A DNA stretch of 64,000 bases from Callorhinchus milii (Eukaryota). Below, in pieces: positions 14,347 to 63,489 of the stretch; the stretch's first letter is position 1, and each line of letters opens with the position of its first letter. Position numbers and translations under genes: made by a program. The stretch is taken from NCBI RefSeq assembly GCF_018977255.1, contig NW_024704742.1:41108001-41172000 (forward strand). The letters run 5' to 3'. The notes below the pieces were generated by a model. That model was not told the origin of the DNA, did not search any database, and saw only the letters and a program-made list of their open reading frames with translations.

Positions 14347-14666
14347 CATAATAATAATAATCCTTGCATTTGATATAGCGCTTTTCACGTCGGGAGGACG
14401 TCCCAAAGCACTTCACAGAACACACTGTAAAGTGAATTGACTGTATATTTGTGAGCGAACGCAGCAGCCAATTGCGCACAGCAATGTCCCACAAACAGTC
14501 GTAGATTGAAAATGACCAATTTATTATTGTTTTTGTTTTTGGAGGGATTATTATTAGGCGTGTGGAGTAAGGAAACTTGCCCAAGGTTTCGCCCTCTGCC
14601 TGGAATTGAACTCAGGTCTCTCGCTTGCAAAGCGAGTGCTCTAACCACTGAGCTACAGGACTCCAC
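14347..14666 (-). mobile_element. SINE family A, short form, full length and young
   Basis: tRNA-Ala-like head with A box TAGCTCAGTGG, anticodon arm CTCGC-TTTGCAA-GCGAG and B box GAGTTCAATTCC; CCTTGGGCAAG; Deu 3' motif GCTGTGCGCAATTGGCTGC; L2-type tail with (ATT)n. Confidence 0.95.
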
Positions 14667-14667
14667 A

Positions 14668-16520: not shown

Positions 16521-16523
16521 TTT

Positions 16524-16836
16524 AATAATAATAATCCTTGCATTTGATACAGCACTTTTCACGTCTTCCAGACGTCTCAAAGCGCTTCACAGAATATACT
16601 GTAAAGTGAATTGACTGTATATTTGTGGGCAAAACGCAGCAGCCAATTGCGCACAGCAGTGTCCCATAAACAGTCGTAGATTGAAGTGACCAATTTATTA
16701 TTGTTTTTTTTTCTTGAGGGATTATTATCAGGCGTGTGGAGTAAGGAAACTTCCCTAAGGTTTCGTCCCATCAGGAATCGAATCCAGGTCTCTCGCTTGC
16801 AGGGTGAGTTCTCTAACCACTGAGCTACAGGACTTC
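16524..16836 (-). mobile_element. SINE family A, short form, full length
   Basis: Same architecture as 14347-14666; tail loop TGGAA. Confidence 0.92.
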
Positions 16837-17878
16837 ATTTTATTGAGAGCAATAAACAGCTCCACAGTCCAGGAATCAAGCAGGCCTTAGAACACACCAT
16901 TTGCTGGGGAAGGGAGGAAGAAGAATCCATTGCACAAATTATTTGGAAGAGATAAAAGGATCTTTGAACTCAGAAAATATGAAGAGTTCCTTTCATTTCC
17001 CAGAGAACTGAGGCAATCTTGAGTAATACTTGAAAGATTTCTCAAAAATAAAATACAGTAATTAGAAATTCAACAAGGCCCATGGGCATGAATCAGGCTC
17101 TCAACAGTCAAGCTCAGAAGACAGAAGGTGAATAGACCGTTTAGATTTAACCACCTTATATTGAGACTGCATAATATGGGGAATAGATATTTCAACATTA
17201 AGTCTGACTGATGAGCCGAGGAGACCGGTCAAACATTAACTTGGATTACAGCAGACTGAAGGCAGCCTCCCCAGCTAGACCTGCATTAGCTCCCTCCAAT
17301 GATAAAAAAAATGTTTTGGATGTGGTATTTATCATCCTGGAATGGTGAAGCGACAAGTGGCTCTAGTCGGATATCAACCCAGGACCTTTATGTTCCACGG
17401 CCAATTCTAAATCAACTGAGATAGTCTTTAAGTCCAGTTTTGGCAATTGAAACAGTTATCTGAACCCAGAGATTAGATTGCAGCTTTGAAATTATTCTGC
17501 ACTATTGTTGATAGCATCTACTGCTCCACTTCTTACATAACATATACTGTATTCTGTTTTGAGTGAGTTTTGACGTTGGCAGTAGCTGTGGGGGTGAAGC
17601 ATTGCTGCCAAAAAACTCCACTGCACCAAACATTATCTGGGCTTGATCCTGCTCACTTGATTACAAATTATTTTGCTTATTAATGATTTGCTATCACTTG
17701 TGATTATCACATGGACTCAAGCTTAGAAGAGGGAAGGGTGAAGAGGCATCTTAGATTTAATTACTCTGCACAGACAGTAGTGAAGTTGTGGAACCCGCTA
17801 CACAGCGAGGTGGTGTAGGCAGATTCTGACAGCAAATTTAAGTGGGAAATCAATAGCTATTTCGCAATAAAATCAATT

Positions 17879-18314: not shown

Positions 18315-18781
18315 GTGTACAAGAGATTGAGTGGTGCATATTTTGTTTACATTAGGTCCAGTTGGATTGACACAATAGTCTATTCCATTGCTGTATGCTC
18401 TCCTATTCTCAGAATCCAAATACCTGATTTGAACACTCGAGTTGATCCAAAACAACATGGCTAAGAATTAAATCTGGGACTACCTTTCAGAACACTATGC
18501 ACTAACCATCATGCTTAACCACTGAACCATTAAGATAATGTGTTTGAATGGACTGGAATCTCATCTCAACTCTGAAAAATGGAGGCACTCTCTCGCACAA
18601 AAATATCTGAGGAGGTTTTTTTATAAATAAATGATCCTGAAATATTATGAGTTTTCAGAAGAATATCCTGTCAATACTAATTCAATACTAGGAAAAATGA
18701 TGGAAAAAAGTAATAAGAGGAAAATAATGGATAAGACGCAACAACCTAAATGGACCCCCTCATTTTCATTCACTGGTTGAA

Positions 18782-19212
18782 ACAACAGCTGGAATTTCTA
18801 TAGCACCCTTCAGTTAGAATAATGTCTCAGAGCGCTCTGTGCCTTCATTTTGGAAGGTTGAGAAGGGATTTGTAGGTGATGGTGAGGATATTGCCATGTG
18901 TATTTGTAGGGGAATGCAGCAGGACATTTTGCACACACCAATGTCCCACAAACAGCCATGAAACAAACGATCAATTTTACTTGGGTGATTGTTGGCCAGG
19001 ACACCAGAAGAAACTCTTTCGATTAGTGCCACGCGATCTTTATAGTCCACCTGACCAGTTGAACACCTTGTCTGAAGGATCCAACAATGCAGTGCACCCT
19101 CAGCACTGCAATAGAGTGTCAGCTTGTCCTGTTCCAAGTCCCGACATGGGGCTTGAACCCATAACTTTCTGACTCAGAGGCAAAAATGCTACCAACTGAG
19201 CCAGGCTGACAC
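18782..19212 (-). mobile_element. Deu-domain SINE family B, near full length
   Basis: Reverse complement: GTGTCAGCCTGGCTCAGTTGGTAGC..CTCTGAGTCAG..GGGTTCAAGCCCC..GTGCTGAGGGTGCACTGC..GTGTCCTGGCCAAC..GGCTGTTTGTGGGACATTG. Confidence 0.85.
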
Positions 19213-19829
19213 ACAAGACGCCAGACCACAAGATACAAAATCAAGAGGCGGACTGCACGAGAAGCAGAGGTCGCTCCCAAAAATACAAAAAAAAATGGAA
19301 AATTTTAGCAATACAAAATAGTTGAAATGCTACAGTACATCGGAGCCAGTGTAAAAGATAAAGAAAATCTGCAGAAATGCCAATTAAACATTCCTGAGAA
19401 ACTGAAACAAAAATCTCACTGGGTTTGTGCAATCCTGTGGCATTAAAGTGTACAAATGATAAGTTCATGTAGAGTTCACATTCTAAGAATGTAAGATGAC
19501 TTTTGCATTTTCACAGATGAGTCCCCACATCTAACACCAAACTGATACAGACAGCAAACTGCAACCAGTTATAGATATTGACATGTCTCACCATGAATAA
19601 AGCGTAGCACCCAAGCTCCCAGCATACAGAGAGGAGAGGGTGCTGCCGAGTGACCGGATCACTCATGCCTGGATCCTCCATGTGGCCTTCTCTGGGATTT
19701 GAAAAGCAAGCTTGCGAATCGCATGCAAAATACAAAACATATTACCCTGACAGGCAGGGGCAGTTCCATCTAATTTCCCACCAAATACTAGAAAGTGCCA
19801 TTGCCCGGTTCCATGTCACTGTGCATGAG

Positions 19830-21065: not shown

Positions 21066-21308
21066 ATCCCATCGCACACCATGGAGTCCCCAAGCCTTGG
21101 CTCTTGCCAACCTGCGCCTAATACTTTCCAGAATTAGGTAAGCAGGATGTGTCCCTCCAGGGAGAGAGTGCGCATTCCATTCCGACAATCTATCTCTGGG
21201 ATTTCCATGTGTTGGTGGGATGTATGGAATTTTCAGTCTGGTTTGGATACTCTTGAGCATTTTGATGGGTTTTCGCATGTGTCAGACACCCAGCTGACCA
21301 AAAAAAAA
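21066..21308 (+). mobile_element. Family X 3' end
   Basis: GTCCCTCCAGGGAGAGAGTG.GCATTCCATTCC..GGTTTGGATACTCTT..GTGTCAGACACCCAGCTGACC(A)n; matches 59460-59612. Confidence 0.8.
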
Positions 21309-23494: not shown

Positions 23495-24035
23495 CAACAA
23501 TAACAACAGTAAAATTACATTCATATTGCGTCCTTCATGTGGAAGGATATCCCAGAGCGCTGGTCAGTTAAGGATTTGCACCCGAGCTGGGGGTTGGAAT
23601 CAATAGGGGTGAGAGAATGGCTGAAAGCACAGTCAAAGAAGAAAGTCTTGAGACAAGCCTTGAAGGAGGCAAGAGAGGGGGGGCGAGGCTTAGGATTCTG
23701 GGATGGAGGTCCAGAGGGTGGGAGCAGAAAGGCAGATGGCCCGATTGCCAATGGTGCGGCGGGCAGAGTTGAGGACATGAAGCAGGCCAGTGACTGCCAA
23801 GCAAAGGAAATTGACAGGTTGGTATGGCCTTAATAGATCGCAGAGCAGGAAGGGCTTTGAAGGCAAGGACGAAGATTTTAAACTCAATCCTCTGAGGGAT
23901 GGGGAGCCAATGGAACCGGGCGAGAATGGAGATTGTCGGTTCACAGAAGTTAGGACAGGAGAGGACATTTCTGAATAATTTGCATCTTGTGGAGGGAAGA
24001 GTTGGGGATACCGGTGAGCAGGGAGTTAGCATATG
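23495..24035 (-). mobile_element. L2 LINE 3' fragment
   Basis: ILARFHWLPIPQRIEFKIFVLAFKAL; SLASFKACLKTFFFD; (TTG)n-type tail. Confidence 0.9.
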
Positions 24036-24502: not shown

Positions 24503-25352
24503 TCTATAGCACAGAAACAGCCCTGGTCAAAGTGACAAATGACATTCTGTCCATCTGCAACCGGGGCTCCCTCTGCCTCCTCGTTCTCTCTGCTACCTTC
24601 AACACCATTGAGAACTCTATCCTCATCTACCACCTCTCCTCTCACTTCAACCTTCATAGTTCTGTCCTTAAACAGTTAAGATTGTATCTCTCACACCGCC
24701 TCCACTTCATCTCCACAAACAGCTTCTCCTCTATGCCCCCAGACTGTCTTGTGCGGCATTCCTCAGGTATCTGTCCTTGGTTCCCTCCTCTTCAGTATTT
24801 ATATGCTCCCTCTTGGTGACATCATCCGCAGACATGGGGTCAACTTACACATGTATGTGGATGACACCCAACTGTACCTCTCTGCCTCCACCCTTGACTA
24901 CAGTACCACTGTCAGCACAGCAGTGGTCCTAAAGTCAAGGGTGGAGAGCTAATCTTCTTCAGTTGAACGTGAACAAGACCGAGGCTGTCCTGATTGGCTC
25001 CTGTCAGCGCCTCCTCACCTCAGGCATTGACAGCATCACCATCTGTGGATGCAAATTCCACCTCACTGAGCTAATCCGGAACATTGGCGTCTTGTTTGAC
25101 CCGCAATTATCCTTTCTACCCCACATGCGTGCCATGACCCGCTCTGCCTTCCCCCACCTCCGCAACATTGCCCGGCTCTGCCACTGCCTCACACTGCAAG
25201 CCGCTGAGACCGTCATACACGCATTCATAACATCCAGGCTTGACTATGCAAACTCCTTGCTTGTCGGCCTCCCCAATTCCTCTCTCATCCAGAACTCTGC
25301 AGCCAGTGTCTTCTCCCCCACCAGGCTCCGCGAACCTATCACCCCCAACCCC
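24503..25352 (+). mobile_element. L2 LINE RT-domain fragment, frameshifted
   Basis: [81 protein letters not shown]. Confidence 0.95.
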
Positions 25353-26349
25353 ATCGATCAAGAACACTTTGCTCTGCAGAAAAATCTTATTTGAGAAATG
25401 CAATTCTAAATGACAAATAATACATTGCTATATAGTTGCACAAATAAAATTAAATGCAATATTAAGATAATAATTAGGTTTAATGTGAAGTTAACCAGTT
25501 TTTGGTTTAGCTTCACAGGAAACGGCAACTTCGCTGAGCTCTTTGGGGTTGGGGGGGGGGAGAGAGTGTGGTGAGTGGTGGCTGCTGTATAGAATCACAT
25601 ACCAATGTAGCTTAGCGATTGCAACCTTCAACTTAACTAGAGGCATCCTGCAAGTGTACACACTGTTTAAAACCTTCCTCTTCGCCCTTGCCATTCATGG
25701 ATTACAGGGCAATCCTGTTACAGTGCAGTCATCTGTGTCCAAAAATTCAGAGACTGCTTAATGTACATTGTGAAAAAAATGTCAACTCCCAGGTGGTCAG
25801 GTCACCTTTGGGGTCACTTCCTGCATGCTGTGCGCACACCTGCAATGTGCAGGAAGCGCCCCAGACAAATTCAACCAATCGAGGAGGGTACTGGGGTGAC
25901 AATATTTTTTCACAGCACTTTGCCATTTCATTCACATTGGAATTTCAGAATTTTGCATGTTTGAATTCCAATATTAGTTTGATCATAAATCTCAATGAAA
26001 TTTGTTATCTGAAATGGATAAAAGAAAGTAAAATGCAAAACTTTTGGGGCTTTATCATGTGCCAATCACTAGTACTGTACTATCATTCCTTTTTTATGCA
26101 TTAAAATGAAATCCCATCTCACGATATGTCACCAAAGGATCATTCACATTTGTGATCAGTATTGCGATAGACCCTGGTGAAAAACAACTAGCTATTAATA
26201 ATCTGATAAAATACCTGGCTACTCTGCCTCTCTCATTGTAAAATATCAATCAAATCAATCAAATTGAGATGAGTTACAATCGTGCAATTACGCTCACATA
26301 TAAAAGAAAATTCATCAAAAATATTTTGTGGAAAAATTTGAATATTGCC

Positions 26350-26815
26350 TTGAGCTCATAGTCTTAGTTTACACTCTAGTGCAGTGTTTGAGAAGCAGGA
26401 GATTATCGAAGGTAGATCAGATGAGTCACTAAACCAAGGTATTGTCTTCCTGTTTTAATAAAAATGCTACTAGCACTACTAATAATGATGCTTGTATTTG
26501 TATAACACCTTAGTATGCCGTTGAGATATCTCAAAGTGCTTCACAGGATATACCGTAAAGTGGATTGACTGTATTTTTGTGGACAAATTATGTGAATGTT
26601 AAAAATCCTAGGACAATATATGAAAAGAGAAGGGAGTTTCGATAGTATTCTGGCCAACAATCTCTTCCACATGAGTTAGTCATTTATCTCATGGCTGTTT
26701 GTAAGACCCTGCTATTCATAAATGGCTTCTAGACTTCCCAACAAAAATAGTCACTACATTTGATAGTATGTAATTGTGAAGTGTTTTTGAGATAGTTCAG
26801 CATGATCAGATAATA
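26350..26815 (+). mobile_element. Family B Deu SINE with a nested family A tail (~26480-26590, minus)
   Basis: GATGAGTCACTAAACCAAGG, TTCTGGCCAAC and GGCTGTTTGT motifs, split by an inverted family A tail. Confidence 0.6.
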
Positions 26816-28059: not shown

Positions 28060-28420
28060 ATTTAGCACAGATTGTTTTGGGCAAAGAAGACCCTTCTGCC
28101 CACATGATCTAATCTTTCTGGAACACACACCCTACCATGCTCCATCACAGTGGAAAGCTGTTTTTGAAATGGATCCAGTGTCCTGACCTCAACCATTCTT
28201 CCTGGTAACCTGTTCCAGTTGTCAATTACCCTCCGGGTAAAGAAATATCTCCTAATGTCTGTCCTGAAATTGCCCTTTGCATCCTTAAACCCGTGTCCTC
28301 TTGTTCTACTGTTTTGACCTATCCAAAAGTATTGTTCTGGGTTCACTTTCTCAATTCCATTTAAAATCTTAAATATCTCTATGAGGTCCCCTTTGAGAAA
28401 TCGCCTTTCTTCAACAAGAA
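28060..28420 (-). mobile_element. CR1 LINE 3' fragment
   Basis: SRTRGHGFK..FRTDIRRYFFTRRVIDNWNRLP. Confidence 0.9.
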
Positions 28421-31400
28421 GCAGACAGTTGTCACCTTCTGAAATACTGGAGTGATAAGAAGACAGAACACCCTTTAATTTTCATATACTTTAGTTTATT
28501 TAAAGCAAATTAAAAAGCCTAAGGCATGATCTGAATATGCAGCAACTGCAAAAAGTGAAAAAATATTCTCACTGTTGGTTTAGGCTCAACTGAGTGAGGC
28601 ATCTTCCTTACATTTTACCATCTCCATGGTACAGCTCTGCCCAGGGGCTTAATAAAGCAGCCTTTTGCACTGCACAGCATCTCATTTGAAGCAGCTTGCC
28701 CTGAATACTGTGATATCTTGAAAGGATGGTATCACAATTCACTGACATTTTTAAGGAACTTCAGACCTAAAGCGAAGGATTTAAAAAAATTAAATCTGCA
28801 ATTTTCTGCTCTGTGGGTGTTGCATCTGTGGGTGTTGTAAATAAAATACACTTTTGTGCCATTTTAAAAATATTCCTCACAGCCTAAACACAGTTTCTCC
28901 CGTATGGTGCTAAATCGTTGGATGTTACATTGCAAAAACTTCAATCATAAAAATCATGTCAGTTCGATTTCTAGTAGATTATGAAGAATAAAAAAGTTGT
29001 TACATTTTAATGATAACAAATATTGCCGCAACACTCTTTATTACACATGGAGGTCTCTTTTGCAATATTCACAAATTGGACTTGCTGTGTTAATTGCAAC
29101 TTCCGGTGGGCGAATAGCAGATCGTCAAAATCGCATCTGGTAAATCCTAAATCAGCAAAGAAAGAAAGACCAGTGCTTTGGTTGCACGCCTTTGTTGATC
29201 TGGGATATTCAATTTACTGTCATCGATTCATGATCAGATATTTACAAACAGTCACAATTAGTCATATAGAATTACACAGAATGTTACAGCACGGAAACTA
29301 GTTCATGCCGATGTTTATACTTCATATAAGCCTGCACCCCTTGTAATCCCATCTCCCTTATCTCTCTATTCCCTTCTCCCTTAGGTATACATTAAGTTTC
29401 CTCTTAAGTACTTTGATGATACACATTTATTGTGACTTTGAGTCAACAGCCTTGTTTTATCCTTTACTGCTTAATTTTATGAATATTGCAAATTAGATCC
29501 CATGGTGCTACAAAACAATAGCTGCCGTACTCAGTAATATTATAACACATAAATACATGAACAATCCACAGAGCTTTCCGTGATATCTCAAATTAGATGC
29601 TACAAATTATAAACTGAAAACCAGAGGAGCATAATGCGGAAATAAGGTAGAAATCTCAAACTGCAAGTCTCCTAGGCACTGCTTGGATTGTCCGTCACAT
29701 CAACTAAAAACTGCAGGTAACCTTTAATCAATGCATTTTACAAATGCATCACTGTCAATTATATATCTTATTTATTCAATGGAAATACCATAACTACCAA
29801 ATGAAGAACCATGAGGGTTTTTTTGTAAAGGAACACTAAAGGTTAAGCTATGTGCTGCTAGCCTTAACTAGTCTCCCATTGCTACTTCTGTATAGCGTGC
29901 CGAGCTCTTGAATAATTTATACCCATCTACTGTACTGAGGAAGGTTCAAGGTCTGTGCAGTACTGTTGTTATTTTTCAACCTAAATGGATTATCATGGTT
30001 GCATTTGGTGCATCTCCAATCTGGTCTACTGACGCACACATCATAAATTCAGTAGTTTACAGCAAATTACAGTTAGAGCCATTTGTTTTTTTTTAAACAA
30101 ATGAAATGTGTGTCTGTCGTTTCTTTTAGAAAAGTATTAATATTCAAGGGAATGTTTCCACAGCAACTCTAGTTTCTCATAAGGGTTTTACACAGCACAG
30201 ACACTGATGGGTTAAACCTGCACCTGCGCAGCTGACTGTAAGAATGGAAACCTTACTAACCATCTGCGAGATGGTGCCTTGCCTAGTAAACACACTCTCA
30301 ATCAACAGCCCATCCAACAGGGCGCTGTCATTTCTGAGGCTGATGGAGCTAAATTGAAGGAAACTATTCACAAGCAGTTGGTTGTGTCTTGCTTTCTTTC
30401 TTTCAAATAAAAAATACTTCTTTCAAATACAACAATGGTAACAAAGAGAAAAAGTGCATCGCAGGATTCATATAAAATATTGTTGAGAATTAAGGTTCCA
30501 TAAACACAGATTCTTCTTCATTTCAGAGTTTTCAAATAATGTTACACAACCAAAGGAATGTTCTATTACTCATAAACCACAGCTGGTAAATGTCACCACC
30601 CCCTGAATCCCAAGATAAAAACAAAACAAAAGGGAACCAAGTCTGAACGCAAGAACACAAAATATTGTCTGGGACATAAAAGACAAAAGCAGAAATGGTA
30701 ACGTTAACCATTGACCCCAAGCTTGCAATACCAATAGACCAAAGTATGAGGAGTACACACAGCAGAACTTGGGAATGCAAAGCCAATTTGTGGTGAAATT
30801 ATTTCCAAAAACATTTCCAGACATTCCAGTGCAATTGTGCTTTTTGTATCCAGTAACTTAGAATCATAGAATCTTACGAGGGAAGGCCATTACAAAGGAG
30901 GCCATTCAGCCCATCGTGCCTTTGCCAGCTCATTGGAAGAGCTATCCAACTAGTCCCACATAGAATCATAGAACTTATATACTTCTGGAGGTTATGTAAT
31001 TTAGAGATTTCCACTTTTTGAGAAGGATTATACAGATAGGACCAATGACATTCTGTCAGGACTTGACAATCTGTGATTCAGAAGGCGAGCAAAGTTATGG
31101 TTGCATCAATTGTCAAGGATCCCTCTCCAGTACAACTCTCCAGATCTTAATTCTATTTGAAAGTACAAGCAAAAAAATATATATATTTTACATATCTACT
31201 ATTTGTGTGTAAAATAATATTTAGATTGTCTTAAGGACTTCCAAATTTGTATCTATCAATTATTTAATTACAGTTAATAAAAGCTAATTTAGAGTCACTT
31301 GTAATTATTTTTATTGACTGTGTGCATAAATTAATGAAGGCTGCAAATTGCTCAGTGCACAAGCGTTTGCACATGGTTAAGCACAAACCTAATAACATGG

Positions 31401-33111: not shown

Positions 33112-33728
33112 AAGGTAGGGTGGAGCAAGCCCGCGGAGGACTTTAAAGGTGAGATCAAGGATCTTGAACTTGATCCTCTGGGGGATGGGGAGCCAGTGGA
33201 GACGGGCGAGGATAGGGGTGATCGGCTCACGAAGCTTAGTGCAGGAGAGGACACAAGCTGCAGAGTTCTGAATAATCTGCACTTTGTGGAGAGAAGAGTT
33301 GGGGAATCTGGCAAACGGGGAGTTGCCGTACTCGAGCTTGGACATAATGGAAGTGTGGATGAGGGTATTAGCAGTCTGAGGGGAGAGACAGTGGTAGAGG
33401 CAGGCAATGTTGCGAAGGTGGGGGAAGGCAGAATGGGTAATGGCACAGATTTGGGGATTAAAAGATAGTTGAAGGTTGAACAAGACACCAAGGTGGCTCA
33501 GCGAGGTGGAGAAAGCATCCACTAATAGTGATCTTGTCAACGCCTGAGGTGAGGAGGCGCTCATAAGAGCTAAGGAGGAGGACCTCTATCTTTTCGACAT
33601 TCAACAGTAGGAAATTAACTCTCATTGAGGACTCAATGTTGGACAAGACAATCCAGCAGGACAGCAGTGGTGCTGGGGTCGAGGATGGAGGCAGAAAGAT
33701 AGATTTGGGTATCATCTGCGTACATGTT
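33112..33728 (-). mobile_element. L2 LINE fragment
   Basis: MY.DDTQ remnant; NFLLLNVEK.E; IIQNSAACVLS..ITPILARLHWLPIPQRIKFKI. Confidence 0.92.
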
Positions 33729-34288
33729 GAAGTTGGAGGGTTATGACTAAGAACTGTCAAAATGCTTTTAAGATCTGCAATGTTTTTGGCGGATTCCAGG
33801 AATCACCATCAATCTTGACATTGTCACAGGAATTGATGACAGACCAATGTGGCTAATAACCAGCCACTATTTCATTTGAAAACCAAGAACTTTGAATGAA
33901 CAGAACTGAACTACATGCTGGAAGGACAATTGCCATAGATATCAGTCCCCTAACATTACCTAAGTCAAACTCCCCTTTGGGTGGGAAACTTTACCCATTT
34001 TCTCGTGCAGCAAAGCTCCACCCTTGGGTCAGTGAATCCTTCTGGAGGGGGAAATCTGGATAACATTGTGCCAGTTTCTAATTCCACCGGTTCTCTGGCG
34101 GGGCTGCTGCAACCTAATCTTCTGAGGTTGACCCAACCACTGGGGGGGATCGAGAAGCTGGTATATTTTCGCATCAAGATAATTTCCCACAACCTCGGAT
34201 GTCTCCTCCATGGTTCAACTCCTTATGCAGGTTGCAATATACCATGCTTTGAGATGTCTTCCTGATGTGAAATGTGCTATATCATTTG

Positions 34289-39567: not shown

Positions 39568-40004
39568 CAACAACAACAACAACAACAAGATTCCATTTAT
39601 AAAGCGCCTTTCACGTCAGGAGGACGTCCCAAGGCGCTGCACAGTTGGGTCATGACCCGAGCAAGGGGGAAATGGTCAGGGTGAGGGGAGGGAAGGGAGG
39701 GAGCAAGGAGGGGGGAAATGGTCAGGGTGAGGGGAGGGAAGGGAGGGAGCGAGGAGGGGGAAGAGAGTCGAGAGGGGAGCTGAAGGCTCGGTCAAAGAGA
39801 AAGGTTTTGAGACCGGCCTTGAAGGAGGAAAGGGAGGAGGCGGCGAAGGCACTGGGGGATGGAGTTCCAGAGCCTGGGGGCTGAGAGGCTGAAGGCCCGA
39901 CCACCGATGGTAGGGCGGTTGGGGCGGGGGACGTGGAGCAGACCAGAGCCAGAGGAACGGAGGGTACGGGCAGGTAGGTAGGGGGATAGTAGGTTGGAGA
40001 GGTC
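39568..40004 (-). mobile_element. Young L2 LINE 3' fragment with a ~47-bp internal tandem duplication
   Basis: LSPYLPARTLRSSGSGLLHVPR..GGRAFSLSAPRLWNSIP; (TTG)n tail. Confidence 0.95.
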
Positions 40005-41336: not shown

Positions 41337-41660
41337 TATAATAATAATAATCCTTGCATTTGATATAGTGTCTTATCATATCGTTGAGACATCTCAAAGC
41401 TCTTCATAGAATATATTGTAAAGTGTATTTTGTGGTTAAAACTCAGCAGCCAATTGAGTGACCAAATCTTTTGGGGGGGGGAAGAGATTATTACCCCCAG
41501 CAAGCAATCTGCCAATCGACTAACAACCAGTTTCCTACTTATTGCTAAGTAAAGAGAGGCATGTGGAGTAAGGAAACTTGTCTACGGTTTCGTCCTAGGA
41601 ATCGCACCCGGATCCTCTCGCTTGCGAGGCGATTATGGTGCGCTAACCACTACCATACGG
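41337..41660 (-). mobile_element. SINE family A, long form
   Basis: tRNA-like head plus the extra segment TTTACTTAGCAATAAGTAGGAAACTGGTTGTTAGTCGATTGGCAGATTGC; family A tail. Confidence 0.88.
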
Positions 41661-42547
41661 GACATTTTCCACTTTGCATTGTATTGAATTGAATAAAACT
41701 ACAAGCAGATGATGATGACCAAATTGCAAAGGAGATTCTACACAAATGTTTACACAGACCAGTTCCATGAACATAAATGTGATGTAATTTCTGAAGCATT
41801 CAGTACCTCTCAGCACAAAATAGAGATTGTGTGTCCTGCTGCTACAATGAGGTATGAAACATAACATTTGCACCACTGCATTTGACACATTAATGGGATT
41901 CTCCAGCTTGTGAATATCGAATTGCGAAAATCTCAACAAGCAAAACACACGCAGCTTCCCATCGGTGTTTTGCTCACCAGGCTTATTTTCTGCGATTTCT
42001 TGCTCACAAATTTCACAATCTGATGTTCACATACCAGAAGCAATTAATACAAAAGAAGTACAGTGTGCATTTTGGGTCCCATAATGTACACTGGATAGTT
42101 ACTACAAATCTATGGGAGTATGTAGTATAATAACCGATGAAAACAACCATGGTAAAGCTCTGTACAGTTGGTAGGTTTTGAATCTTAACTAGATGCTCGG
42201 AAATTAAGAATCTGATTTACACTTGTAATGCAAATTAGGATCTTTTTTTCTCTGTTATTACTTTGAACTCCAAGAACTGCAAAATCCCCAGACATCATTA
42301 TCTTGCTCTTCTGCAATCAGGCCTTTACAACAGCAATACAGTTTATGTTGAATTTCTTTTAAAAAGATTATTACATATACAGAAACAGGAAGCATCTCTG
42401 AAGCAGAGTTCTGACTCACTACGCTTCGCACACAATATAAAATGAAAAAAAGATTAACCCCCTGTAGTCCAGTTAGACAGGGTAAAACCATTTCTTCAGA
42501 ATAAACATTATACTTTATCTCAGTTTTTACTAAGTTTAGGAAAAACA

Positions 42548-42886
42548 AGTCCGATAGTGTAGTGCTTAGTGAATTCGCCTCGCAAGGGAGAGGAACCTGG
42601 GTTCAATTTCCGAGCAGGACAAAATTTTAAGCAAGATTCCTTACTCCACACGCCTCCGTTTACCTAGCAGTAAGTAGGAACCTGGTTCTTAACCGATTGG
42701 CAGATCGTTTTCCAGGGGTAATGATCTCTCAAAAAAATTATTTTGTCACTCAATCCATGACTGTTTGAGGGACAATGCTGCCCACAAAATATAGTCAATC
42801 CATTTTACAGTATATTTTGTGAAGGGCTTTGAGACATCTCAATGATGTAATAAGACGCTATATCAAATACAAGGATTATTATTATT
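42548..42886 (+). mobile_element. SINE family A, long form, full length
   Basis: tRNA-like head; CORE-like GCAAGATTCCTTACTCCACACGCCTCCGTTTACCTAGCAGTAAGTAGG; partial Deu 3' motif; tail. Confidence 0.9.
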
Positions 42887-45367: not shown

Positions 45368-45391
45368 TTTGTTCATTGCCCAGAACCCAAC

Positions 45392-45808
45392 AGTAGCATT
45401 CTCACCTCTAAATCAAAAGGTTGTGGGACTAAGCCCCACGTCAGGACTTTGAGCTCATACTCTAGGCTGACACCTCTTGGCTAGAGGAGGATTCCATTGT
45501 TGGTTGTGCCGTCACTTCTGACATTAAACCAACGTCCTATTTGCCTGATCAGGTGAACGTTAAAGATTCCATGACACTATTTGAAAAAGAGAACAGTTTC
45601 TTCCAGTGTCCTGGCCAACAATCCCCCAGATAAAATTAGTCATTCACTTCATGCCTGTTTGTAGGACAATGCTGCGTGTGCAAATTGGCTGCCACATTCA
45701 CAAAAACACAATCAGTAAAAATCAAACTTTCAGTAAAAAAATCTTGTGCACCATCTCGAGACATTTGCGGATGTGATAAGGTGCTATATCAAATGCAAGT
45801 ATTATTAT
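45392..45808 (+). mobile_element. Deu-domain SINE family B, near full length
   Basis: GTAGCATTCTCACCTCT..GGTTGTGGGACTAAGCCCCAC..AGGCTGACACC..AAAGATTCCATGACACTATTTG..GTGTCCTGGCCAAC..GCAAATTGGCTGCCAC..tail. Confidence 0.88.
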
Positions 45809-48689
45809 TTCCATCCATGAAGAGTGAGGAAATGGCACCCCAACTGGAAAAATAACATATTATATTTTCATCAACAAGTCACTTTCTAAGCAGGAATTGT
45901 ACAAGTCTGTGAACATTTTCAAAATAATATATTTGCTTCAAAATAAATAATAGATATATTGATAAAGGATGAGCAATTGCCTAAAATATTTTGCGCTTAA
46001 ATCAGGGTTTCTACGAAGTGTGGCTACAAATCAAGCAATTGGCTAATCTTCACAGAGCAATCTGTTTAAATCACTTGTTCTGTAATTCCATCTAAACAGG
46101 ATCAGAACACACTTTAAAACATATTTTACACAAAGCTGATTAGATTGCTATCATGTAGTGCTGTCTCCAGGTGAAAATGTGTCAGTGTCTTGAAGGTGCT
46201 TAATGCACCAAGCATTGCAAATCAGGTAATTGGGAAACATTTCATGATCAGATTGAGATTTTATGTCTGAAGGTTAATCTTGGTTATGTAAGAGCTTGGA
46301 GGCAGCTGTGTGCGCTAGGGTGGAATTATCTATTTGCAGAGGAACTGGAGTCATTTATCTGGAGTAGCTGTCTTGAAGGGAGAAAGTGCAGTGAATTCCT
46401 TGGATCCTTAGCAACTTCTGCACTCATGCCTATTCAGAATACTGTTTTGAGAAGAGGGGAGACACCGGTGCTTTCTTCAGAATAATCATAGATTAATGAC
46501 AGTAATTGCTCCCACTTTCACAGACTCTCCCAAAGTGAGCAACTGCTCCTGATCATAAAAGCTAGCTTAGCTTCTGGTTCAAGTTCAGTAAATAAACTCA
46601 GTTAGTCAGGTTTCTCTAAACCCATGTCCTCTTGTTTTACTGTCTTGGTACATCCTAAAGTATTGATCGGGGTTTAGTTTATGAAGCCCATTTAAAATTT
46701 TAATGATCAGTTGTGATTCTGAATCTTCTTCTCTCAAGACTAAAGAGCCCAAACTTGTCTAATCACACGTGATAGCTCATTCCTCTAACATTGGAACTCA
46801 TGCTTGTTGCTCTGCTCCAAAGACCAGAGCAGCCCGATTATGACATCTGGGGATCTATTCCTATCGTCTGATTAATTGTGTGCACTATTTGCTTATCCAC
46901 AATGGGGCTGGTCCCAATTATTGAGGATAATTGGCTCCCTCCTGTACTTAGCTCTCTGTTAAATGAGCGCACAGCAGCTTATTGTTTAGCAATTTCCAAA
47001 TAACATTATCCTCCTTGTACAGGGAAATCTCATTATAATGCAGCCTTCTGGATCCAATGTCTCAAAACCTGCATTATCGTCAAAATGGGGAAAAATAGCC
47101 AACTTCTGGGATGTCAGGGGGCTGCTGACATCACTTCCTGCACATAGGCGCCACTGACACCACTTCTGAGCATTGTGTGCAAGAAGTGCTGTTAACATCA
47201 CTTCCTTCATGAAGTGACCAACATTCATGAAAGTACCTTCACCTAAAAGTGACGTCAATTGTATGGTGACCTGACAATCCATAAGTGTGCCATTTTTTAG
47301 TGAAAACCAACTAGTGAGTGCCAGAAGCTGGATATCATGGTCCTGAGGACACCAGCATTAAAAGTGAGGCTGCATTATCTCCAGAGAAGGGAATGGGGGT
47401 ATGGGAGAGGGGATTAGGAGGATTGAATCCTCTTGTGGAGTATAAACACTGGTAAACACTAGTTTGGCTGAATAGCCTGTTTTTGTGCTGTAACACTGTA
47501 ATGTAATGTCCCCCAGTAATACATAATTCCATGTATCACTGGGGGACATTATAATAGAGCTGCCTTGTACTCTGCAGTGAACCATATGACTTCACAAATA
47601 TGATTCCTGCTGTAATTCTTCCTTTGGCCTAGATGGACTTTCCTTTGAGATTCATGATTAAGTGCGGAAATCAAAGTGTAATTGTTCATTCATTGTACCA
47701 AATTTGACAAACAAGGGTCAAGCCAATAGCATCTGTAATTACACTAGTTCAATTTCCTTTTTTTTAAAAAAAGAGTAACTTCAGATATTTAGAGAATTCT
47801 CTGTGGTCAGTCAACTGCTTCAGAAGCTGTTTACCTCAGTGATTGTGTTACATTATCTACGAGATACTTCTGAGGCACACAAGATCCTGTTCTGAATTGT
47901 TGCAAGCTTTGAAGTAATTCAGATTCTCAAAGAGGATAGCTACAGGGTAAAGTCAATTTGTAGATAATGTGTGCTGAATGTAAACTCATCTGTGATCAGC
48001 ACCGGATTATTGCTTAATCAACCTGACGTAATATCATCCCAAACCATTAGCGCTCTCTGTGAACATCGCTACATGTCAAGTATATGTTGNAAAAAAATGG
48101 TGGCAACTGAGCTCCAGGCTGTAAACTAATCATGGGCTTCGGATCATAAACCACGGCTTATGAGGTTCTCTGAACACCTTGTGTGTCACAGTGATAACAT
48201 GATTCACTCAGGTTATAGTTTGTCATTAAGCTTGAATTTTGAGGTCTAACCTCAGTGAGTGGATGATGGCACTCTGCACTTCACATTTATTCTAATTTGT
48301 GAGTAATACATTTAAGAATATCCAAAGCAGGAACATTTGGTGCACCTGAGAGGCAACATTGAACTCATTTTAAGTGCAAGAACATCTCCATCAGTTTATC
48401 ATTATACAACAAAGCAGTTCCAGGTAAGATGCGTTACACACTATCTAGATGCTGTTTGAAATTCCAACCAGTTGAGTATCTCTGCTGACAGACAATGACC
48501 ATTTAGACTGGACACCTCACAAGGTTGATTTCCCACCCTCCCTCTGGATATTTTGAGCATCTCATATTTTCTCCCTTCAGCACGATCAGAGGATGCTAAC
48601 AGTGTGCGGATCCTGCTTTTGACTTTGGGCTCTGCAACCTGGTCCCACCCAAAGTTATCTCTATTTTTCATTCAAATAGATACAGGACA

Positions 48690-49508: not shown

Positions 49509-49817
49509 GTGGAGTCCTGTAGCTCAGTGGTTAGAGCACTCACTTCGCAAGTGAGAGACCTGGCTTCAATTTCCGGCAGGGCAAAACCTTGGGCAAGTTT
49601 CCTTACTCCACATGCCTAATAATAATCCCTCAAAAAAAATAATAAAATTGGTCACTTCAATCCACGACTGTTTGTGGGACATTGCTGTGCGCAATTGGCT
49701 GCCGCTTTTTGCCCACAAATATACAGTCAATTCACTTTACAGTGTATTCTGTGAAGCGCTTCGAGATGTCTAGGAGACGTGAAAAGCACTATATCAAATA
49801 GAAGGATTATTATTATT
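49509..49817 (+). mobile_element. SINE family A, short form, full length
   Basis: GTGGAGTCCTGTAGCTCAGTGGTTAGAGCACTCACTTCGCAAGTGAGAG..CCTTGGGCAAGTTTCC..GCTGTGCGCAATTGGCTGCCGC..(ATT)n. Confidence 0.95.
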
Positions 49818-51587: not shown

Positions 51588-51666
51588 GATTATATTTTTT
51601 TCTATTTAATAAGAAGCCTCAGTATTTTAAATACTGAGGCATCTTATTAAATAGAAAAAAATAATC
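51588..51666. repeat. Near-perfect palindrome with ~33-39-bp arms and a 1-nt centre
   Basis: TTTTTTTCTATTTAATAAGAAGCCTCAGTATTT-t-AAATACTGAGGCATCTTATTAAATAGAAAAAAA, one mismatch. Confidence 0.95.
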
Positions 51667-52391
51667 TGGTAGAGAGGTTGAAATGACAACATAGATTGTG
51701 AAGCTCAAGCAGTTTATTATCATCTGAACCCTGAGATGAGATTAGTTTCATTCCAATCACTCCAGTGCGCCCATTATTTTTTATGTAAGTGTCTTGATGA
51801 TGATAATATATAGCAGTCTTATTTTCGACAATGTAAATTAAGTCTAACCCATTGCTGGAAGGTGGAAACTCAGTGCATTAAAGCAAAGTTCAGAATAACA
51901 CCACTTTCAGAGTTTGTTTCAGTTTTACTGCCACTTACTCAGTCCGTTCCAGCCTCCATACTGCTCTCCTATTTTAACATTCCTACTCTCTCGACCAGAG
52001 CCACTCTCTCTCTATCTCTCTTTCTTTAAGAAACAGTAGCTTGACTACATCAGAACTCTGTTATAACATACTTGGTTATAACCCAGGTTTACTTGTAAAG
52101 CAAGTGCCCTGTTGACACACTGCTGGCACCCTACTCTTGGCCGGGTTCCTGTGAGCTAAAAAACGAACAATTTCCAGGTTATCAGGTCTTCATGTCCTGG
52201 CAGTGACATCGACTGCGACCTAATGACCCTGAAGTCAGACATTTTTTAAGCACAGGAAGCTGGCCAGCTTTCTGCACACATGCACAGTGATGGCACGGGT
52301 CAATAATCTTTGCTGTCACAATGTGGAAGCGCTGATAGCGCTTGCACCCCATTATAAGGTGGTTGGAATTTTATGGACCCCAAGAACAGCA

Positions 52392-53012
52392 TCCCCGGCA
52401 GGGAGAAACAATAGGCAAGTTTCCTTACTCGACACGCCTATGTTTACCTAGCAGTAAGTAGAACCCAGTTGTTAGTCGATTGGCAGATTGCTTTTCCAGG
52501 GGTAATAATAATTCCGTCAAAAACAAATAATAATAATAGTAATAATTCTTGCATTTGATATAACGCTTTTCACGTCAGGAGGACGTCCCAAAGCGCTTCA
52601 CAGAACACACTGTAAAGTGAATTGACTGTATATTTGTGGGGGAACGCGACAACCAATTGCGCACAGCAGTGTCCCACAAACAGTCGTAGATTGAAAATGA
52701 CCAATTTATTATTGTTTTTGGTTTTGGAGGGATTATTATTAGGCTCTGTGTGGAGTAAGGAAACTTGCCCAAGGTTTCGCCCTCTGCCTGGAATTGAACT
52801 CAGGTCTCTCGCTTGCAAAGCGAGTGCTCTAACCACTGAGCTACAGGACTCCACATAATAATAAATTGGTCACTCAATCTGAGACTGTTTGTGGGAGGGA
52901 CACTGCTATACGCATTTTGCCCACAAATTACACTTTACAATATATTCTGTGAAGCACTTTCAGATGTCTCGAAAACGTGATTAGGGGCTATATCAAATGC
53001 AAGGATTATTAT
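52392..53012 (+). mobile_element. Long-form family A SINE split by a nested short-form copy
   Basis: 5' part at ~52392-52535 (CORE-like segment); 3' part at 52856-53012 (Deu 3' motif and tail). Confidence 0.85.
52536..52855 (-). mobile_element. SINE family A, short form, young, nested
   Basis: Almost identical to 14347-14666; inserted into the host (AAT)n tract, with ATAATAATAA on both sides. Confidence 0.95.
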
Positions 53013-53549
53013 TGTCACAATATGGTTCTACTGTATCTCGGGTGAGGGGAACCAATCAAATGACTTATTAGCCGGGACCTTCCTCTTCAGTGCTAACTAT
53101 TTGGGGGAGAAGCAGCTCCTTCAAGAACATTGTTTATGGAAAGCCAAGGTTTAAATAGGCCAGAAAACTTTTTCCCCCTTAATTCCTTCTTAGGTTTGAA
53201 CATTAATATTGCTGCCCGGGTATCTCTGGAGAGAGATGAGAAGAGAGAGAACACTTCCATGACCTAATGGAGGGTTTCCCAGGGGATATTTGAATCATAA
53301 CAGCCCAAGCTATTTAAACATATACAGTTGTTCAAAAACAATCTTAAACATATACACTTCGCTGGATGCCGGTTAACCTCTGACGCCGGGTAAATGAAAC
53401 AAAATACCCGGCCCCGATTACCCTGTATTCTTACCTGTTTCAAATATTATGGTTCAATCAGACGAAAACCCGCTTACTCCGGGCAAAATGCCGCACTGGT
53501 CACCACTGGATGCACTCACTTGGCCTTCAGTGTGTCCAGCGGCTCCATT

Positions 53550-53855
53550 TGTGGGGTCCTGTGGCTCTCGCTTTGCTAGCGAGAGACCTGAGTTCAATTC
53601 CAGGCAGGGCGAAACCTTGGGCAAGTTTCCTTACTCCACACGCCTAATAATAATCCCTCCAAAACAAAAAAAACAATAATAAATTGGTCATTTTCAATCT
53701 ACGGCTGTTTGTGGGACACTCCTGTGCGCAATTGGCTGCCGCGTTCGCCCACAAATATACAGTCAATTCACTTTACAGTCTATTCTGTGAAGCACTTTGG
53801 GACGTCCTCCCGATGTGAAAAGCGCGATATCAAATGCAAGGATTATTATTATTAT
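53550..53855 (+). mobile_element. SINE family A, short form, young, with a small deletion in the D-arm
   Basis: GTGGGGTCCTGTGGCTC/TCGCTTTGCTAGCGAG..; tail GGGACGTCCTCCCGATGTGAAAAGCGC. Confidence 0.93.
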
Positions 53856-55232: not shown

Positions 55233-55946
55233 TTATGAATTATTCTGTATCAGGATTGAAATTTAGTTTTTTTTAAAAAATTTGATTAGTGATCACGAAA
55301 CCATATTTTCACCCGAATACAAAAAGGCATTAAAACTGCATTTGTCTTCATATCAGTTTTCTCTTATGCTCTTTGTCATGGTTACATAAAGCAGAGACAG
55401 ACTGTGCAACCAAATGACCCAAAGAACAGGGACTCCTTTTTTGGCACAAACACTGCCGACATGGATTTGTTCCACATGCAGGATCACTGCAGACATCGCC
55501 TTGCACGGTTCAAGATCAGGTCAGGATAAATGGGGAACTAAGTGTCGGAGTGCTGCCAGAAAACACTTCACGTGTGTTTGACTAAATCATCAGAGCCTGA
55601 GCATTTTATGCACATTTTATTATTTTTCCATTTTGCATGTGTGCAACAAACTTTAGAGGATAAATGCATGCTCCTTCCAGTTCACCCACACTGGACTCCA
55701 TGGAGAAAATGGTTGCTTATTAAGTGTTAAATCCAGAGCATTGCTGAGCTGCAGACTCACGTCGCTGGGCTGAAACTGACTGCCACAACTCGTTTCATTT
55801 GTGACCCTTCAGAGAGATGAGACCTGCATCTCCAGTGTGAAATTGATTTCAAACCCAGCTCCCCCTCGTGACAGCGCTACGTTCTTCCATCCTGGCAAGC
55901 AGTCCTTCATTCCTTTTCCGCTCTCCTAGGAAGCTTTATTACTTTT

Positions 55947-56176
55947 AATAATAATAATCCATGCATTTGATATAGCGCCTTATCACATCTTCAAGACGTC
56001 TCAAAGCGCTTCACAGAATATAATGTATATTTTGTGGGTGAGATAATGGCAGCCAATTGCACCAGCAGTGTCCCACAAACAGTCGTGGATTAAGTGACCA
56101 AATTATTATTTAGTTATTTATTTTTGAAGGAATTATTACCCCCGGAAAGCAATCTGCCAATCGACTAACAACCGGT
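55947..56176 (-). mobile_element. SINE family A, long form, lacking the head
   Basis: Tail, Deu 3' motif and GTTGTTAGTCGATTGGCAGATTGC segment. Confidence 0.85.
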
Positions 56177-58229
56177 ATCTTTTTAAAAATTTTAATTTCT
56201 TTAAGTATCTTTCATCGGCATTTTTAATATTGTTGCAATATTGTAATCAAAACTGCTTCACCTGAAAAAAAAACTAAAATCCTAACATAGATCCAATTTG
56301 TTCAGTGACATTGATTTCAATTGCGGAAAAAATCTTCACCAGAATTATTCACTACCAGTCACATATTTCAGTTACCACTCCATCAGCTTTCACCCATATG
56401 GTGAGCTCCTAATTTCAAATGATATCACGGGGGACATTTGACAACAGAACCCAACAATATTCATGGCTCTATAGCAATAGAACCCTTTCACTTGCTTTAT
56501 GGAAGCTGTTATGTCCACTGGGTGTCCAACACATGTGGAAACTTGTCAATATGCTTATGAGTATCCAAACCACACCTAGTTCCACATATGTATGTCATCT
56601 ACGCATAGAAACGTCCCTGTGTCTGGAAAGGAATGTGCACTCTCTCACATCCAGAGATGATTAGACACAGGTTGGCAATTGACTTTCTAGACAGAAAGTC
56701 AGAGAATGAATACCCAGAGGCATGTGGACCAACAAATTAGCTGAGCACCATAGACCAAAGGAAGGAGGATTCCCCCCCACCCCATTATGATGAGAATCAT
56801 CAGACTGAAGTCACTGTGGCTCCCCAAAATAATCACTGCTATCTAATGTCACAGGGTGGCTTCCACAATTTTCGAAAAAGATCATATTGTCTATGGTTAG
56901 TGGCCACTACACCATCATCCAGCACCTTTGGACATCCTCTTGACATGAAAGACGCTATACAAATGCAATTTGTTGTTAATTTGTTGTTGTCTATAAACCA
57001 ATTTGAAAACTATTTTGAATTTTGGCTTCTTGTAAGCAGCGACAGAACAAAGAGGAGTCGTGCAAACATTTTTGGACTGCTTGTGGCCTTAACAATGTAA
57101 TTCAATCTCAAATGACCTTCATGGTTAATCTTGCCCCGGAGGAGAGTTTCTCCATTGGGTTATCGAGGAAGGAAAGGGTAAAACAGATTGAGGTGGAGTC
57201 CTTCCTCGCTTAACTGAAGCCTGGCTGCTGGTAGGATGAATAAGGCACAGGACAATGCTTATGGACAGAACTGTAGGATTATGGATCTTCATCTTTAGCT
57301 TTGGGCAGGAAAATCTTGCCAATCTCTGCTCTGCCTTTCCTCATCCACATACCTTTGAAGGTTGCAGTTTTAAAAGTGTTGATGGGTGTGGTGGCAATAA
57401 GCAAGATTGAAGAGGTAGACTTTAAGGCAGGACTTAAAGATGTATAGTGAGGGAGGAGAGAGGAAAGACTGAACAGAATGAATGAGCAAAATATAAATGT
57501 TACAGTTGCATTCACTATTAAGACATGTTCACAGTCACATAAAACATTCAGCCTGCAACATTTAAGTTCCCAATACTGTAACTTGTCAAAGGAATACAAA
57601 GACAATTAACAATTAATGACTGATATGCTATTTGATAAGCACAATGAGCCCTGATATTGTTTCATCCACATTCAGCCGCCTACTTAATGGTGATTTGGGT
57701 AATTTGAGATAATTAGGTGCTTTGTTACTAAAGACAAATTTTCTGTTGCACAGATCCCTGACAAGTGACAACAACAACCTTCAAAACTCCGGGTGCAATT
57801 TATACAATTGTACAAGTGTGCTCAACAATTGCTCCTACCCTTTAAAGTGATGTGCCTTCCTTAGCCCTTTCCCCAGCTCAGGCTCCCAATCAGTTTTGTG
57901 AAGCACCTTCAGATGTCCTCCTGATGTAAAAGAAGCTATATAAATGTAAATTGTTGTTGTTGCCCTTTGAGACATGCTATATCAAATACAAGTGTTTTTG
58001 TATTTTTTGGCTCAGTAGAAATATGATATACCGAGTAGATGAATAGAAAGAAAGCTACCATTTTTACTGTGGCCATCTTTCTCCCACCTCTATACCCATC
58101 CCCAGCTCAGCTGACCAGCCAGCATTGTCAAGTCATTTGAGATGTCCTACTGACATGAAATGTGCTCTATAGTGGTAAACTGTATTCTATTTGAAAGATT
58201 TATGCTGTTCATGCCCTGCTTGATCCTGG

Positions 58230-62752: not shown

Positions 62753-63311
62753 CTACAACAACAACAACAAAATTACATTTATAGAGCGCCTTTCACGTCG
62801 GGAGGACGTCCCAAAGCGCTGAACAGTCAGGTGTCGGGGCCTGAGCATGGGGGAGGGATGGTATAGGGGTGAGGGAAGGCAGAGAGGTGGGAGGGAGACC
62901 AAAGGCACGATCGAAGAGAAGGATCTTGAGGCCGGCCTTGAAGGAGGCAAGGGAGGAAGCGAGGTGAAAGGACCATGGGATGGAGTTCCAGAGTGTGGGG
63001 GCAGAGAGGCTGAAAACCCGGCCACCAATGGTTGGGCAGGTCGAGCGGGAGACGTGGAGCAGGCCAGAGCCCGCTGAACGGAGGGAGCGGGCAGGTTGGT
63101 AGGGAGTCAGCAGGTCAGAGAGGTAGGAGGGGGCAAGTCCATGGATGGCCTTAACGGTGAGGACGAGGATCTTGAATTCGATCCTCTGGGGGATGGGGAG
63201 CCAGTGGAGTCGGGCGAGGGTGGGAGTGATGGGGTCGCGGAGCCTGGTGCGTGAGAGTACACAAGCTCCAGAGTTTTGGATGATCTGCAGCTTGTGAAGG
63301 GAAGAGTTGGG
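62753..63311 (-). mobile_element. Young L2 LINE 3' fragment with an intact reading frame
   Basis: ORF 62793..63446: LQIIQNSGACVLSRTRLRDPITPTLARLHWLPIPQRIEFKILVL..GLAPSYL..WNSIP..FKAGLK; tail GCGCTTTGGGACGTCCTCCCGACGTGAAAGGCGC..(TTG)n. Confidence 0.96.
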
Positions 63312-63489
63312 TGATGGGTCATGGGAAGATTTCTTCAAGGTGGGGGTGATAGTGGCTGTTACTGCACATATAAAGGGAGAGGTGAAGAAATATGCGTGGA
63401 TTTGGAGAATATCACCCCTAATGGTTTGCAGAACCCAGTTCATCATAACTCCATTAGGAAATCATCTCAAATGGATGTGAGAGTTATTT

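What the first reader, a model, noticed from the sequence alone, without database searches (positions are those of the whole stretch)
42548..42886. Chimeric SINE joining a CORE-like domain to the 3' part of a Deu domain
Seen: family A copies (41337, 42548, 52392, 55947, 60768) run tRNA-Ala-like head, then a segment with composite consensus CCTTGGGCAAGTTTCCTTACTCCACACGCCTCTGTTTACCTAGCAGTAAGTAGG, then CTGTTTGTGGGACACTGCTGTGCGCAATTGGCTGCCGC, then an L2-type tail. Established, from memory of consensus sequences: the first segment aligns with the MIR/CORE domain (CCTTGGGCAAGTTACTTAACCTCTCTGTGCCTCAGTTTCCTCATCTGTAAAATGGG), and the second is the 3' part of the Deu domain of SacSINE1/AmnSINE1/SINE3. 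CORE and Deu normally define separate SINE superfamilies. A plausible 3' parent with the whole Deu domain (family B; 18782, 45392) is in the same window. Inference: family A arose by recombination of a CORE-SINE 5' module with a DeuSINE 3' module. The family may already be catalogued without this architecture being noted.
Basis: partly seen in the sequence, partly recalled or inferred. Interest (0 to 1): 0.72.

Follow-up and report, generated by a model that had tools for sequence, protein, structure and literature searches.

The report
Known chimaera SINE, possibly crustacean-derived front
This is an already described jumping-DNA family of chimaera fishes, built from two older families, but its front half closely resembles lobster and crayfish elements, which hints that it came from crustaceans.

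Summary
The repeat is real and chimeric: tRNA-Ala head, CORE domain, a spacer of about 40 nt, then a 3' end of about 165 nt shared with the window's Deu-type family B, ending in an L2-type stem-loop. Only 1 of the 5 named copies carries every module. The chimera is published: Luchetti et al. 2017 describe the elephant-shark CmiSINEs (SINE2-1_CM, SINE2-1B_CM) as CORE-SINEs that took their 3' ~160 bp from the Deu-SINE SacSINE1-CM by recombination, and lancelet BflSINE1 is an earlier CORE+Deu hybrid. The shared part lies downstream of the best-conserved Deu/Nin core. One point I did not find in print: counted by eye, the whole 5' module (head, CORE, spacer; 169 nt) matches published lobster (Homa, 132 identities, one gap) and crayfish (Procla, about 131) CORE-SINEs, more than those match each other (about 71%), and the match stops at the family B junction. 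This suggests horizontal entry from decapods, rescued by capture of a resident tail (about 55%). A younger short form lacking ~62 nt is also present. Verdict: known family, with a testable new lead on its origin.

The parts
42548..42619 (+). tRNA-Ala-derived head with Pol III A and B boxes (long form)
   Evidence: aligns with short-form heads that ARAGORN calls tRNA-Ala and Rfam calls tRNA
42624..42682 (+). CORE domain, decapod-like type
   Evidence: by-eye match to CORE-SINEs printed in the PMC5804259 supplement; shared by tRNA-headed repeats in unnamed contigs; no match to family B
42683..42722 (+). post-CORE spacer, specific to the long form; matches the lobster and crayfish SINEs by eye
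   Evidence: weak scores in only 2 of 123 background loci
42720..42742 (+). junction zone (A-rich linker): decapod-like match ends, family B match begins
   Evidence: the linker alone is not significant against B, so the breakpoint is placed only within this zone
42742..42816 (+). segment shared with family B (3' body of the Deu-type SINE); this copy lacks about 28 nt after 42780
42817..42886 (+). L2-type tail with stem-loop and (ATT)n end
   Evidence: aligns with local LINE 3' ends; similar hairpin predicted
41338..41663 (-). long-form copy with a deletion in the B-shared segment
60768..61116 (+). long-form copy, the only one with all modules
55946..56178 (-). long-form copy, 5'-truncated (spacer to tail)
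52390..52532 (+). long-form copy, 5' piece (interrupted)
52854..53016 (+). the same long-form copy, 3' piece
52533..52853 (-). short-form copy nested in the linker of a long-form copy
49509..49817 (+). short-form copy (about 62 nt of CORE 3' half and spacer missing)
14349..14667 (-). short-form copy
16523..16837 (-). short-form copy
53553..53855 (+). short-form copy
45385..45812 (+). family B, SacSINE1-like Deu-type SINE, near full length (3' donor type)
18775..19215 (-). family B, near full length

Best explanation
Family A is the published holocephalan CmiSINE (SINE2-1_CM / SINE2-1B_CM type), a non-autonomous retroposon. Pol III transcribes it from the tRNA-Ala head, and an L2 LINE reverse transcriptase binds the 3' stem-loop and inserts it by target-primed reverse transcription (established SINE biology; inferred here). 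It arose when a CORE-SINE 5' module (head, CORE, spacer, about 170 nt) was joined, probably by template switching in an AT-rich zone, to the last ~165 nt of the older resident Deu-SINE (family B, SacSINE1-CM type), which supplied a tail the local L2 could use (junction shown; mechanism inferred). A later ~62-nt deletion gave a younger short form (shown by lower divergence and one nested insertion). The 5' module most likely came from a decapod-type CORE-SINE lineage (inferred from a by-eye comparison; see the section on the most novel reading).
For: Module order and junction. Same architecture and the same recombination model in PMC5499810. Age order fits: mean pairwise identity B 62% (34 pairs), long form 79% (14 pairs), short form 88% (15 pairs); the paper gives SacSINE1-CM 22.4% and CmiSINEs 12.6% and 17.2% divergence. 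Density fits: about 22-24 tail-bearing A/C hits and about 11 B copies in 64 kb (my count) against about 20 and 14 expected from the paper's insertion counts and a ~975-Mb genome (size recalled). Tail hairpin shared with local LINE ends. Very high copy number in the host's runs.
Against: The Repbase consensus sequences and the paper's figures could not be seen, so identity to SINE2-1_CM was not measured. The host's name is not known. The paper says its two CmiSINEs differ by 5.1% and both carry 58 bp of CORE; the short form here lacks half of CORE, so it may not be one of the two. Consensus sequences here rest on 3-6 copies. Tail hairpins are individually weak (z from +0.8 to -3.1; 9 SINE and 4 LINE ends). 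Pfam found no family in 6 of 6 LINE-like fragments, so the label L2 rests on recalled motifs and on the paper.
Confidence: 0.85

Rival explanations
1. Same chimera, but the 5' module is native: an old CORE-SINE lineage inherited vertically, kept in chimaeras and decapods and lost or missed elsewhere (the 2017 paper supposes an undetected or extinct resident CORE-SINE).
For: CORE is ancient and mostly vertical. In the same supplement a sea-star and a coral SINE (Pami, Styp) share long, high similarity by eye and were not flagged as transfers. tRNA heads and CORE are conserved by function. Few taxa have been sampled.
Against: By eye, family A is closer to each of the lobster and crayfish SINEs (about 78%) than they are to each other (about 71%), including the non-CORE spacer. 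CmiSINEs were not found in three elasmobranchs, two teleosts, coelacanth or lamprey. The best of 124 motif-selected CORE-like loci reaches 118 identities only with 9 or more gap openings.
Confidence: 0.4
2. A related but uncatalogued family in another cartilaginous fish, not CmiSINE itself.
For: No direct comparison with Repbase; the short form is not mentioned in the parts of the paper read.
Against: Every text-described feature of CmiSINE is met, and density and age order match.
Confidence: 0.12
3. No Deu contribution: a plain CORE-SINE that took its tail straight from an L2 LINE.
For: The last ~55 nt match local LINE ends; the best-conserved Deu/Nin span is absent.
Against: A 75-nt segment upstream of the LINE-like tail matches family B at z 11-22 and has no counterpart in the LINE ends aligned; the paper rejects this for the same reason.
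Confidence: 0.03

Closest known systems
CmiSINEs (SINE2-1_CM, SINE2-1B_CM) of Callorhinchus milii, PMC5499810
   Same: tRNA-Ala head, CORE body, 3' ~160 bp shared with SacSINE1-CM, L2 tail, younger than the Deu family, similar density, recombinant origin proposed
   Different: The text mentions no short form lacking half of CORE and no decapod link (0 hits for Homa, lobster, crustacea, decapod). Sequence identity not measured.
SacSINE1 / SacSINE1-CM (DeuSINE)
   Same: Family B fits it (tRNA-like head, long body, older, shares its 3' end with family A); the label rests on the paper and on recall
   Different: Family A has none of its head or of its conserved Deu/Nin core
Homa (Homarus americanus) and Procla (Procambarus clarkii) CORE-SINEs, PMC5804259 supplement
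   Same: By eye, collinear head, CORE and spacer at about 78% over 169 nt; Homa with a single 1-nt gap
   Different: Unrelated 3' halves: no Deu-like segment, different tails
BflSINE1 of lancelet
   Same: CORE and Deu in one SINE
   Different: It carries the conserved Nin part; family A carries only the downstream 3' part. Its sequence was not seen.
BivaMD-SINE1 (Meta+Deu) and Ante (CORE+V)
   Same: two-superfamily hybrids ascribed to module exchange or template switching
   Different: other domains and hosts

Membership tests
CmiSINE (SINE2-1_CM / SINE2-1B_CM) | tRNA-Ala-derived head with A and B boxes | tested here: met
   ARAGORN calls tRNA-Ala in 3 short-form copies, Rfam tRNA in 4; long-form heads align with them but are too decayed to be called
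CmiSINE (SINE2-1_CM / SINE2-1B_CM) | 3' ~160 bp shared with a resident Deu-SINE | tested here: met
CmiSINE (SINE2-1_CM / SINE2-1B_CM) | tail homologous to an L2 3' end | tested here: met
   the name L2 for the local LINEs is recalled, Pfam gave 0 of 6
CmiSINE (SINE2-1_CM / SINE2-1B_CM) | high identity to the Repbase consensus | not testable with these tools
   supplement not held; figures not held
CmiSINE (SINE2-1_CM / SINE2-1B_CM) | holocephalan host | not testable with these tools
   no genome held; organism name coded; inferred from SINE content and density
CORE-SINE superfamily | about 65-bp CORE domain after the head, by profile hit to the MIR or SINEBase consensus | not testable with these tools
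   no Dfam or SINEBase model available
CORE-SINE superfamily | middle segment homologous to published CORE-SINEs | tested here: met
   by-eye match to Homa and Procla, classed as CORE; 3 of 122 motif-selected loci also match the CORE 5' half outside the motif (z 8.1, 6.3, 4.2)
DeuSINE superfamily | conserved Deu/Nin core (about 120 bp; SacSINE1 124-258) | tested here: not met
   head, CORE and spacer of family A do not match family B; the match starts at about B position 253-269
DeuSINE superfamily | part of the 330-bp vertebrate Deu domain | tested here: inconclusive
   length arithmetic would place the shared segment in its 3' third; no AmnSINE1 or SINE3 sequence was available and Nishihara 2006 is not held
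horizontally transferred SINE module | divergence too low for host split, and patchy distribution | tested here: inconclusive
   by-eye counts and published absences fit; no tree, no crustacean genome searched

The most novel reading that the evidence does not exclude
The 5' module of the chimaera CmiSINE entered horizontally from a decapod crustacean lineage near the lobster-crayfish ancestor, and survived by swapping its foreign tail for the 3' end of the resident Deu-SINE, which the host's L2 could mobilise; it then reached hundreds of thousands of copies. This would be a cross-phylum SINE transfer from arthropod to vertebrate and a concrete case of the tail-capture rescue that PMC5804259 proposed only as a possibility.
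Probability: 0.55. Interest if true: 0.68.

Novelty: already known. Interest (0 to 1): 0.42.

Why it matters
The lead on the 5' parent matters more. SINE horizontal transfer is thought rare because a SINE needs a compatible LINE, and PMC5804259 names only a few cases. A crustacean-type module that became one of the commonest repeats of a vertebrate after capturing a local tail would show how that barrier is crossed, would name the 'undetected' CORE parent that the 2017 paper could not find, and would weaken the use of CORE distribution as evidence of vertical descent. It can be tested in an afternoon with public genomes.

Tried and rejected
No host genome is held, so no genome-wide consensus. 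The spacer motif and a CORE motif found 0 loci in viral contigs. Rfam found no family in 12 of those loci. No RNA holder was listed for the locus. Laying contigs could not show whether the nested insertion is polymorphic: the joint skipping it (5-8 contigs per run) is as well explained by other long-form copies. An apparent alignment of the spacer to family B in MAFFT was rejected: 32-182 of 200 shuffles reach it. Motif searches in supplements of PMC7245038, PMC4824008 and PMC4758252 found no Deu or CmiSINE consensus (one file unreadable in each of the last two). Pfam found nothing in 6 LINE-like fragments. Earlier scan findings: none by sequence, place or words. Contamination of the Homa ESTs by chimaera DNA was considered and rejected: Homa lacks the family's 3' end and groups with the other crustacean SINEs.

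Full report
Observation. A search with 42548-42886 finds all five named copies and many 3'-only fragments. Alignment shows a long form (family A) with the order tRNA-like head, CORE-like segment, spacer of about 40 nt, A-rich linker, a segment shared with family B, and a tail ending in (ATT)n. The spacer motif matches exactly the five named places at up to 3 mismatches, with 0.01 matches expected. Only 60768 has all modules. 42548 and 41337 have internal deletions in the B-shared segment, 55947 is 5'-truncated, and 52392 is split by an opposite-strand insertion and resumes at 52854. In 4 of 4 contig sets of the host, summed depth over SINE bins is 1.4e5-5.5e6 against about 9-120 in unique bins, so this is a very abundant family, though the tool warns that the figure is not a copy number.

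A second form. Five near-full copies (14349, 16523, 49509, 52533, 53553) and probably one truncated copy (20557) match the family A profile at positions 1-108 and 171-335, so they lack about 62 nt covering the 3' half of CORE and the spacer. They are younger: mean pairwise identity is 88% (15 pairs) against 79% for the long form (14 pairs) and 62% for family B (34 pairs), and one sits inside a long-form copy. Three of them are called tRNA-Ala by ARAGORN and four are tRNA in Rfam.

Junction. I scored each module against the family B consensus and four B copies with 200 shuffles each. Head, CORE, spacer and linker were not significant (23 to 200 of 200 shuffles reached the score). The 75-nt segment after the linker scored z 11-22 in 5 of 5 targets, and the tail scored z 6-15 in the 3 targets that have a tail; the 35 nt between them did not match. 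For these last three modules I used the short-form consensus, because the long-form copies have deletions there. The breakpoint lies within 42720-42742. The tail aligns with the 3' ends of local LINE remnants and most copies fold into the same hairpin, although single folds are weak (z +0.8 to -3.1 over 13 sequences). The label L2 for these remnants is recalled and taken from the paper; Pfam found nothing in 6 of 6 fragments.

What is known. PMC5499810 (read: parts 1-4 of 6, abstract to discussion; figures and supplement not seen, and they hold the consensus alignments) describes the elephant-shark CmiSINEs: tRNA-Ala head, body 67-68.5% similar to 58 of 65 bp of CORE, 3' ~160 bp 94-97.5% similar to the Deu-SINE SacSINE1-CM, and an L2-2_CM tail. 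It proposes that a proto-CmiSINE acquired its 3' end by recombination with SacSINE1-CM and rules out direct capture from L2. Its counts (302,861 and 218,294 insertions) predict about 20 and 14 per 64 kb for a ~975-Mb genome (size recalled); I count about 22-24 and about 11, with the caveat that 3'-only fragments cannot be assigned to one family. CORE+Deu is also named for lancelet BflSINE1 (passages of PMC5804259 and PMC4824008; Nishihara 2006 itself not held). The captured piece starts at about position 253-269 of my family B consensus, after the span that SacSINE1 shares with zebrafish, lamprey and coelacanth (124-258). It is Deu only under the 330-bp vertebrate definition, which I could not test directly.

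CORE test. No MIR or SINEBase model was available. The supplement of PMC5804259 (read whole; main text parts 2-3 of 5 and passages) prints CORE-SINE consensus sequences, and the middle segment matches them by eye. A 20-letter motif scan fetched 124 loci; 36 of 122 with enough flank have a tRNA-like head matching family A beyond all 100 shuffles, 3 of 122 also match the CORE 5' half outside the motif, 2 of 123 give a weak spacer score, and 0 of 123 match the 3' part.

New lead. I compared by eye the family A consensus printed (positions 8-176, 169 nt, built from 3-5 copies per position) with the crustacean consensus sequences. These counts are manual, not computed. Lobster Homa: 132 identities with one 1-nt gap (head 53 of 66, next 66 nt 51, last 37 nt 28). 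Crayfish Procla: about 131 identities with five gap openings, three ambiguity codes counted as matches. Homa against Procla: about 119 of 168. Family A is thus closer to each than they are to each other, which puts it on a short branch near their common ancestor. The Homa match ends within a few bases of where family B homology begins. For scale, long-form copies match each other at 128-134 of 164-170, and the best background locus reaches 118 identities with 9 gap openings, score 81 against 186 for the Homa counts; single copies against a consensus is not a like-for-like comparison. CmiSINEs were absent from three elasmobranchs, two teleosts, coelacanth and lamprey, while crustacean CORE domains form a supported clade across five decapods. 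This favours entry from decapods into the holocephalan line, followed by tail capture, the rescue route that PMC5804259 proposes in general terms. Chimaeras feed on benthic crustaceans (recalled). A preprint notes that a snow-crab CR1 is closest to an elephant-shark CR1 at 57% and does not exclude an old transfer (passages only); this is circumstantial.

Against the lead. In the same supplement the sea-star and coral SINEs share long similarity by eye and were not flagged as transfers, so extended modules may persist vertically or move often among aquatic animals. Heads and CORE are constrained. Homa rests on four or five ESTs. An unsampled taxon could be the real donor, and no crustacean genome could be searched here. 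I give transfer about 55%.

Is the lead in print? The 2017 paper has no hit for Homa, lobster, crustacea or decapod; the 2016 paper has none for Callorhinchus or CmiSINE and says Repbase matches of its new SINEs were limited to conserved domains or promoters. Searches (listings only, except papers named here) showed no paper making the link; passages of PMC3747384, PMC4758252, PMC11481361 and PMC6887750 do not make it either. The library lacks most subscription papers, and Repbase and Dfam notes were not visible.

Verdict. Real, chimeric, and already known as CmiSINE (85%). The stated novelty fails. The decapod-like origin of the 5' module is an untested but sharp lead, and it carries the interest score of 0.42.

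Noticed in passing
window 14349-14667, 16523-16837, 49509-49817, 52533-52853, 53553-53855: Younger short form lacking about 62 nt (CORE 3' half and spacer), with a more tRNA-like A box; it shows that an intact CORE is not needed for amplification. Not mentioned in the text read of PMC5499810.
   Followed up: partly
window 14402, 52587, 53801 versus LINE ends at 13026, 39628, 62810: The three least diverged short-form copies have the same pyrimidine-rich hairpin loop as the local LINE 3' ends, while long-form and other short-form copies have different loops: possible re-tuning of the tail to the LINE active at the time.
   Followed up: partly
window 52390-53016: Nested insertion: a short-form copy sits in the AAT-rich linker of a long-form copy on the opposite strand, so its (ATT)n tail is complementary to the target; a short AAT-type duplication flanks it.
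   Followed up: partly
window 277-552, 20554-21067, 14218-14459, 16484-16637, 26477-26792: SINE tails often lie tail-to-tail or inside other SINE copies, suggesting preferential insertion at existing AT-rich tails.
   Followed up: no
window 12355-13076, 17880-18314, 23497-24027, 24841-25394, 33113-33735, 39575-40003, 62755-63461: Many decayed LINE 3' fragments of L2 type (label recalled) ending in (GTT)n; CR1-like fragments at 9030-9842 and 28062-28481.
   Followed up: partly
window 11266-11386, 14668-14743, 47496-47559, 51593-51663: Short perfect or near-perfect inverted repeats (self-matches on opposite strands); one directly abuts the short-form copy at 14667.
   Followed up: no
L002, L104, L024, L098, L045, L046, L031 and related loci: Several distinct tRNA-headed CORE-like repeat families in unnamed metagenome contigs, each with its own 3' end; some loci (L032, L054, L065, L078) hold the CORE motif in short tandem arrays.
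   Followed up: partly
L124 901-1200: A CORE-like, tRNA-headed animal repeat on a 3-kb contig of a bacterial symbiont genome bin, probably host DNA left in the bin.
   Followed up: no
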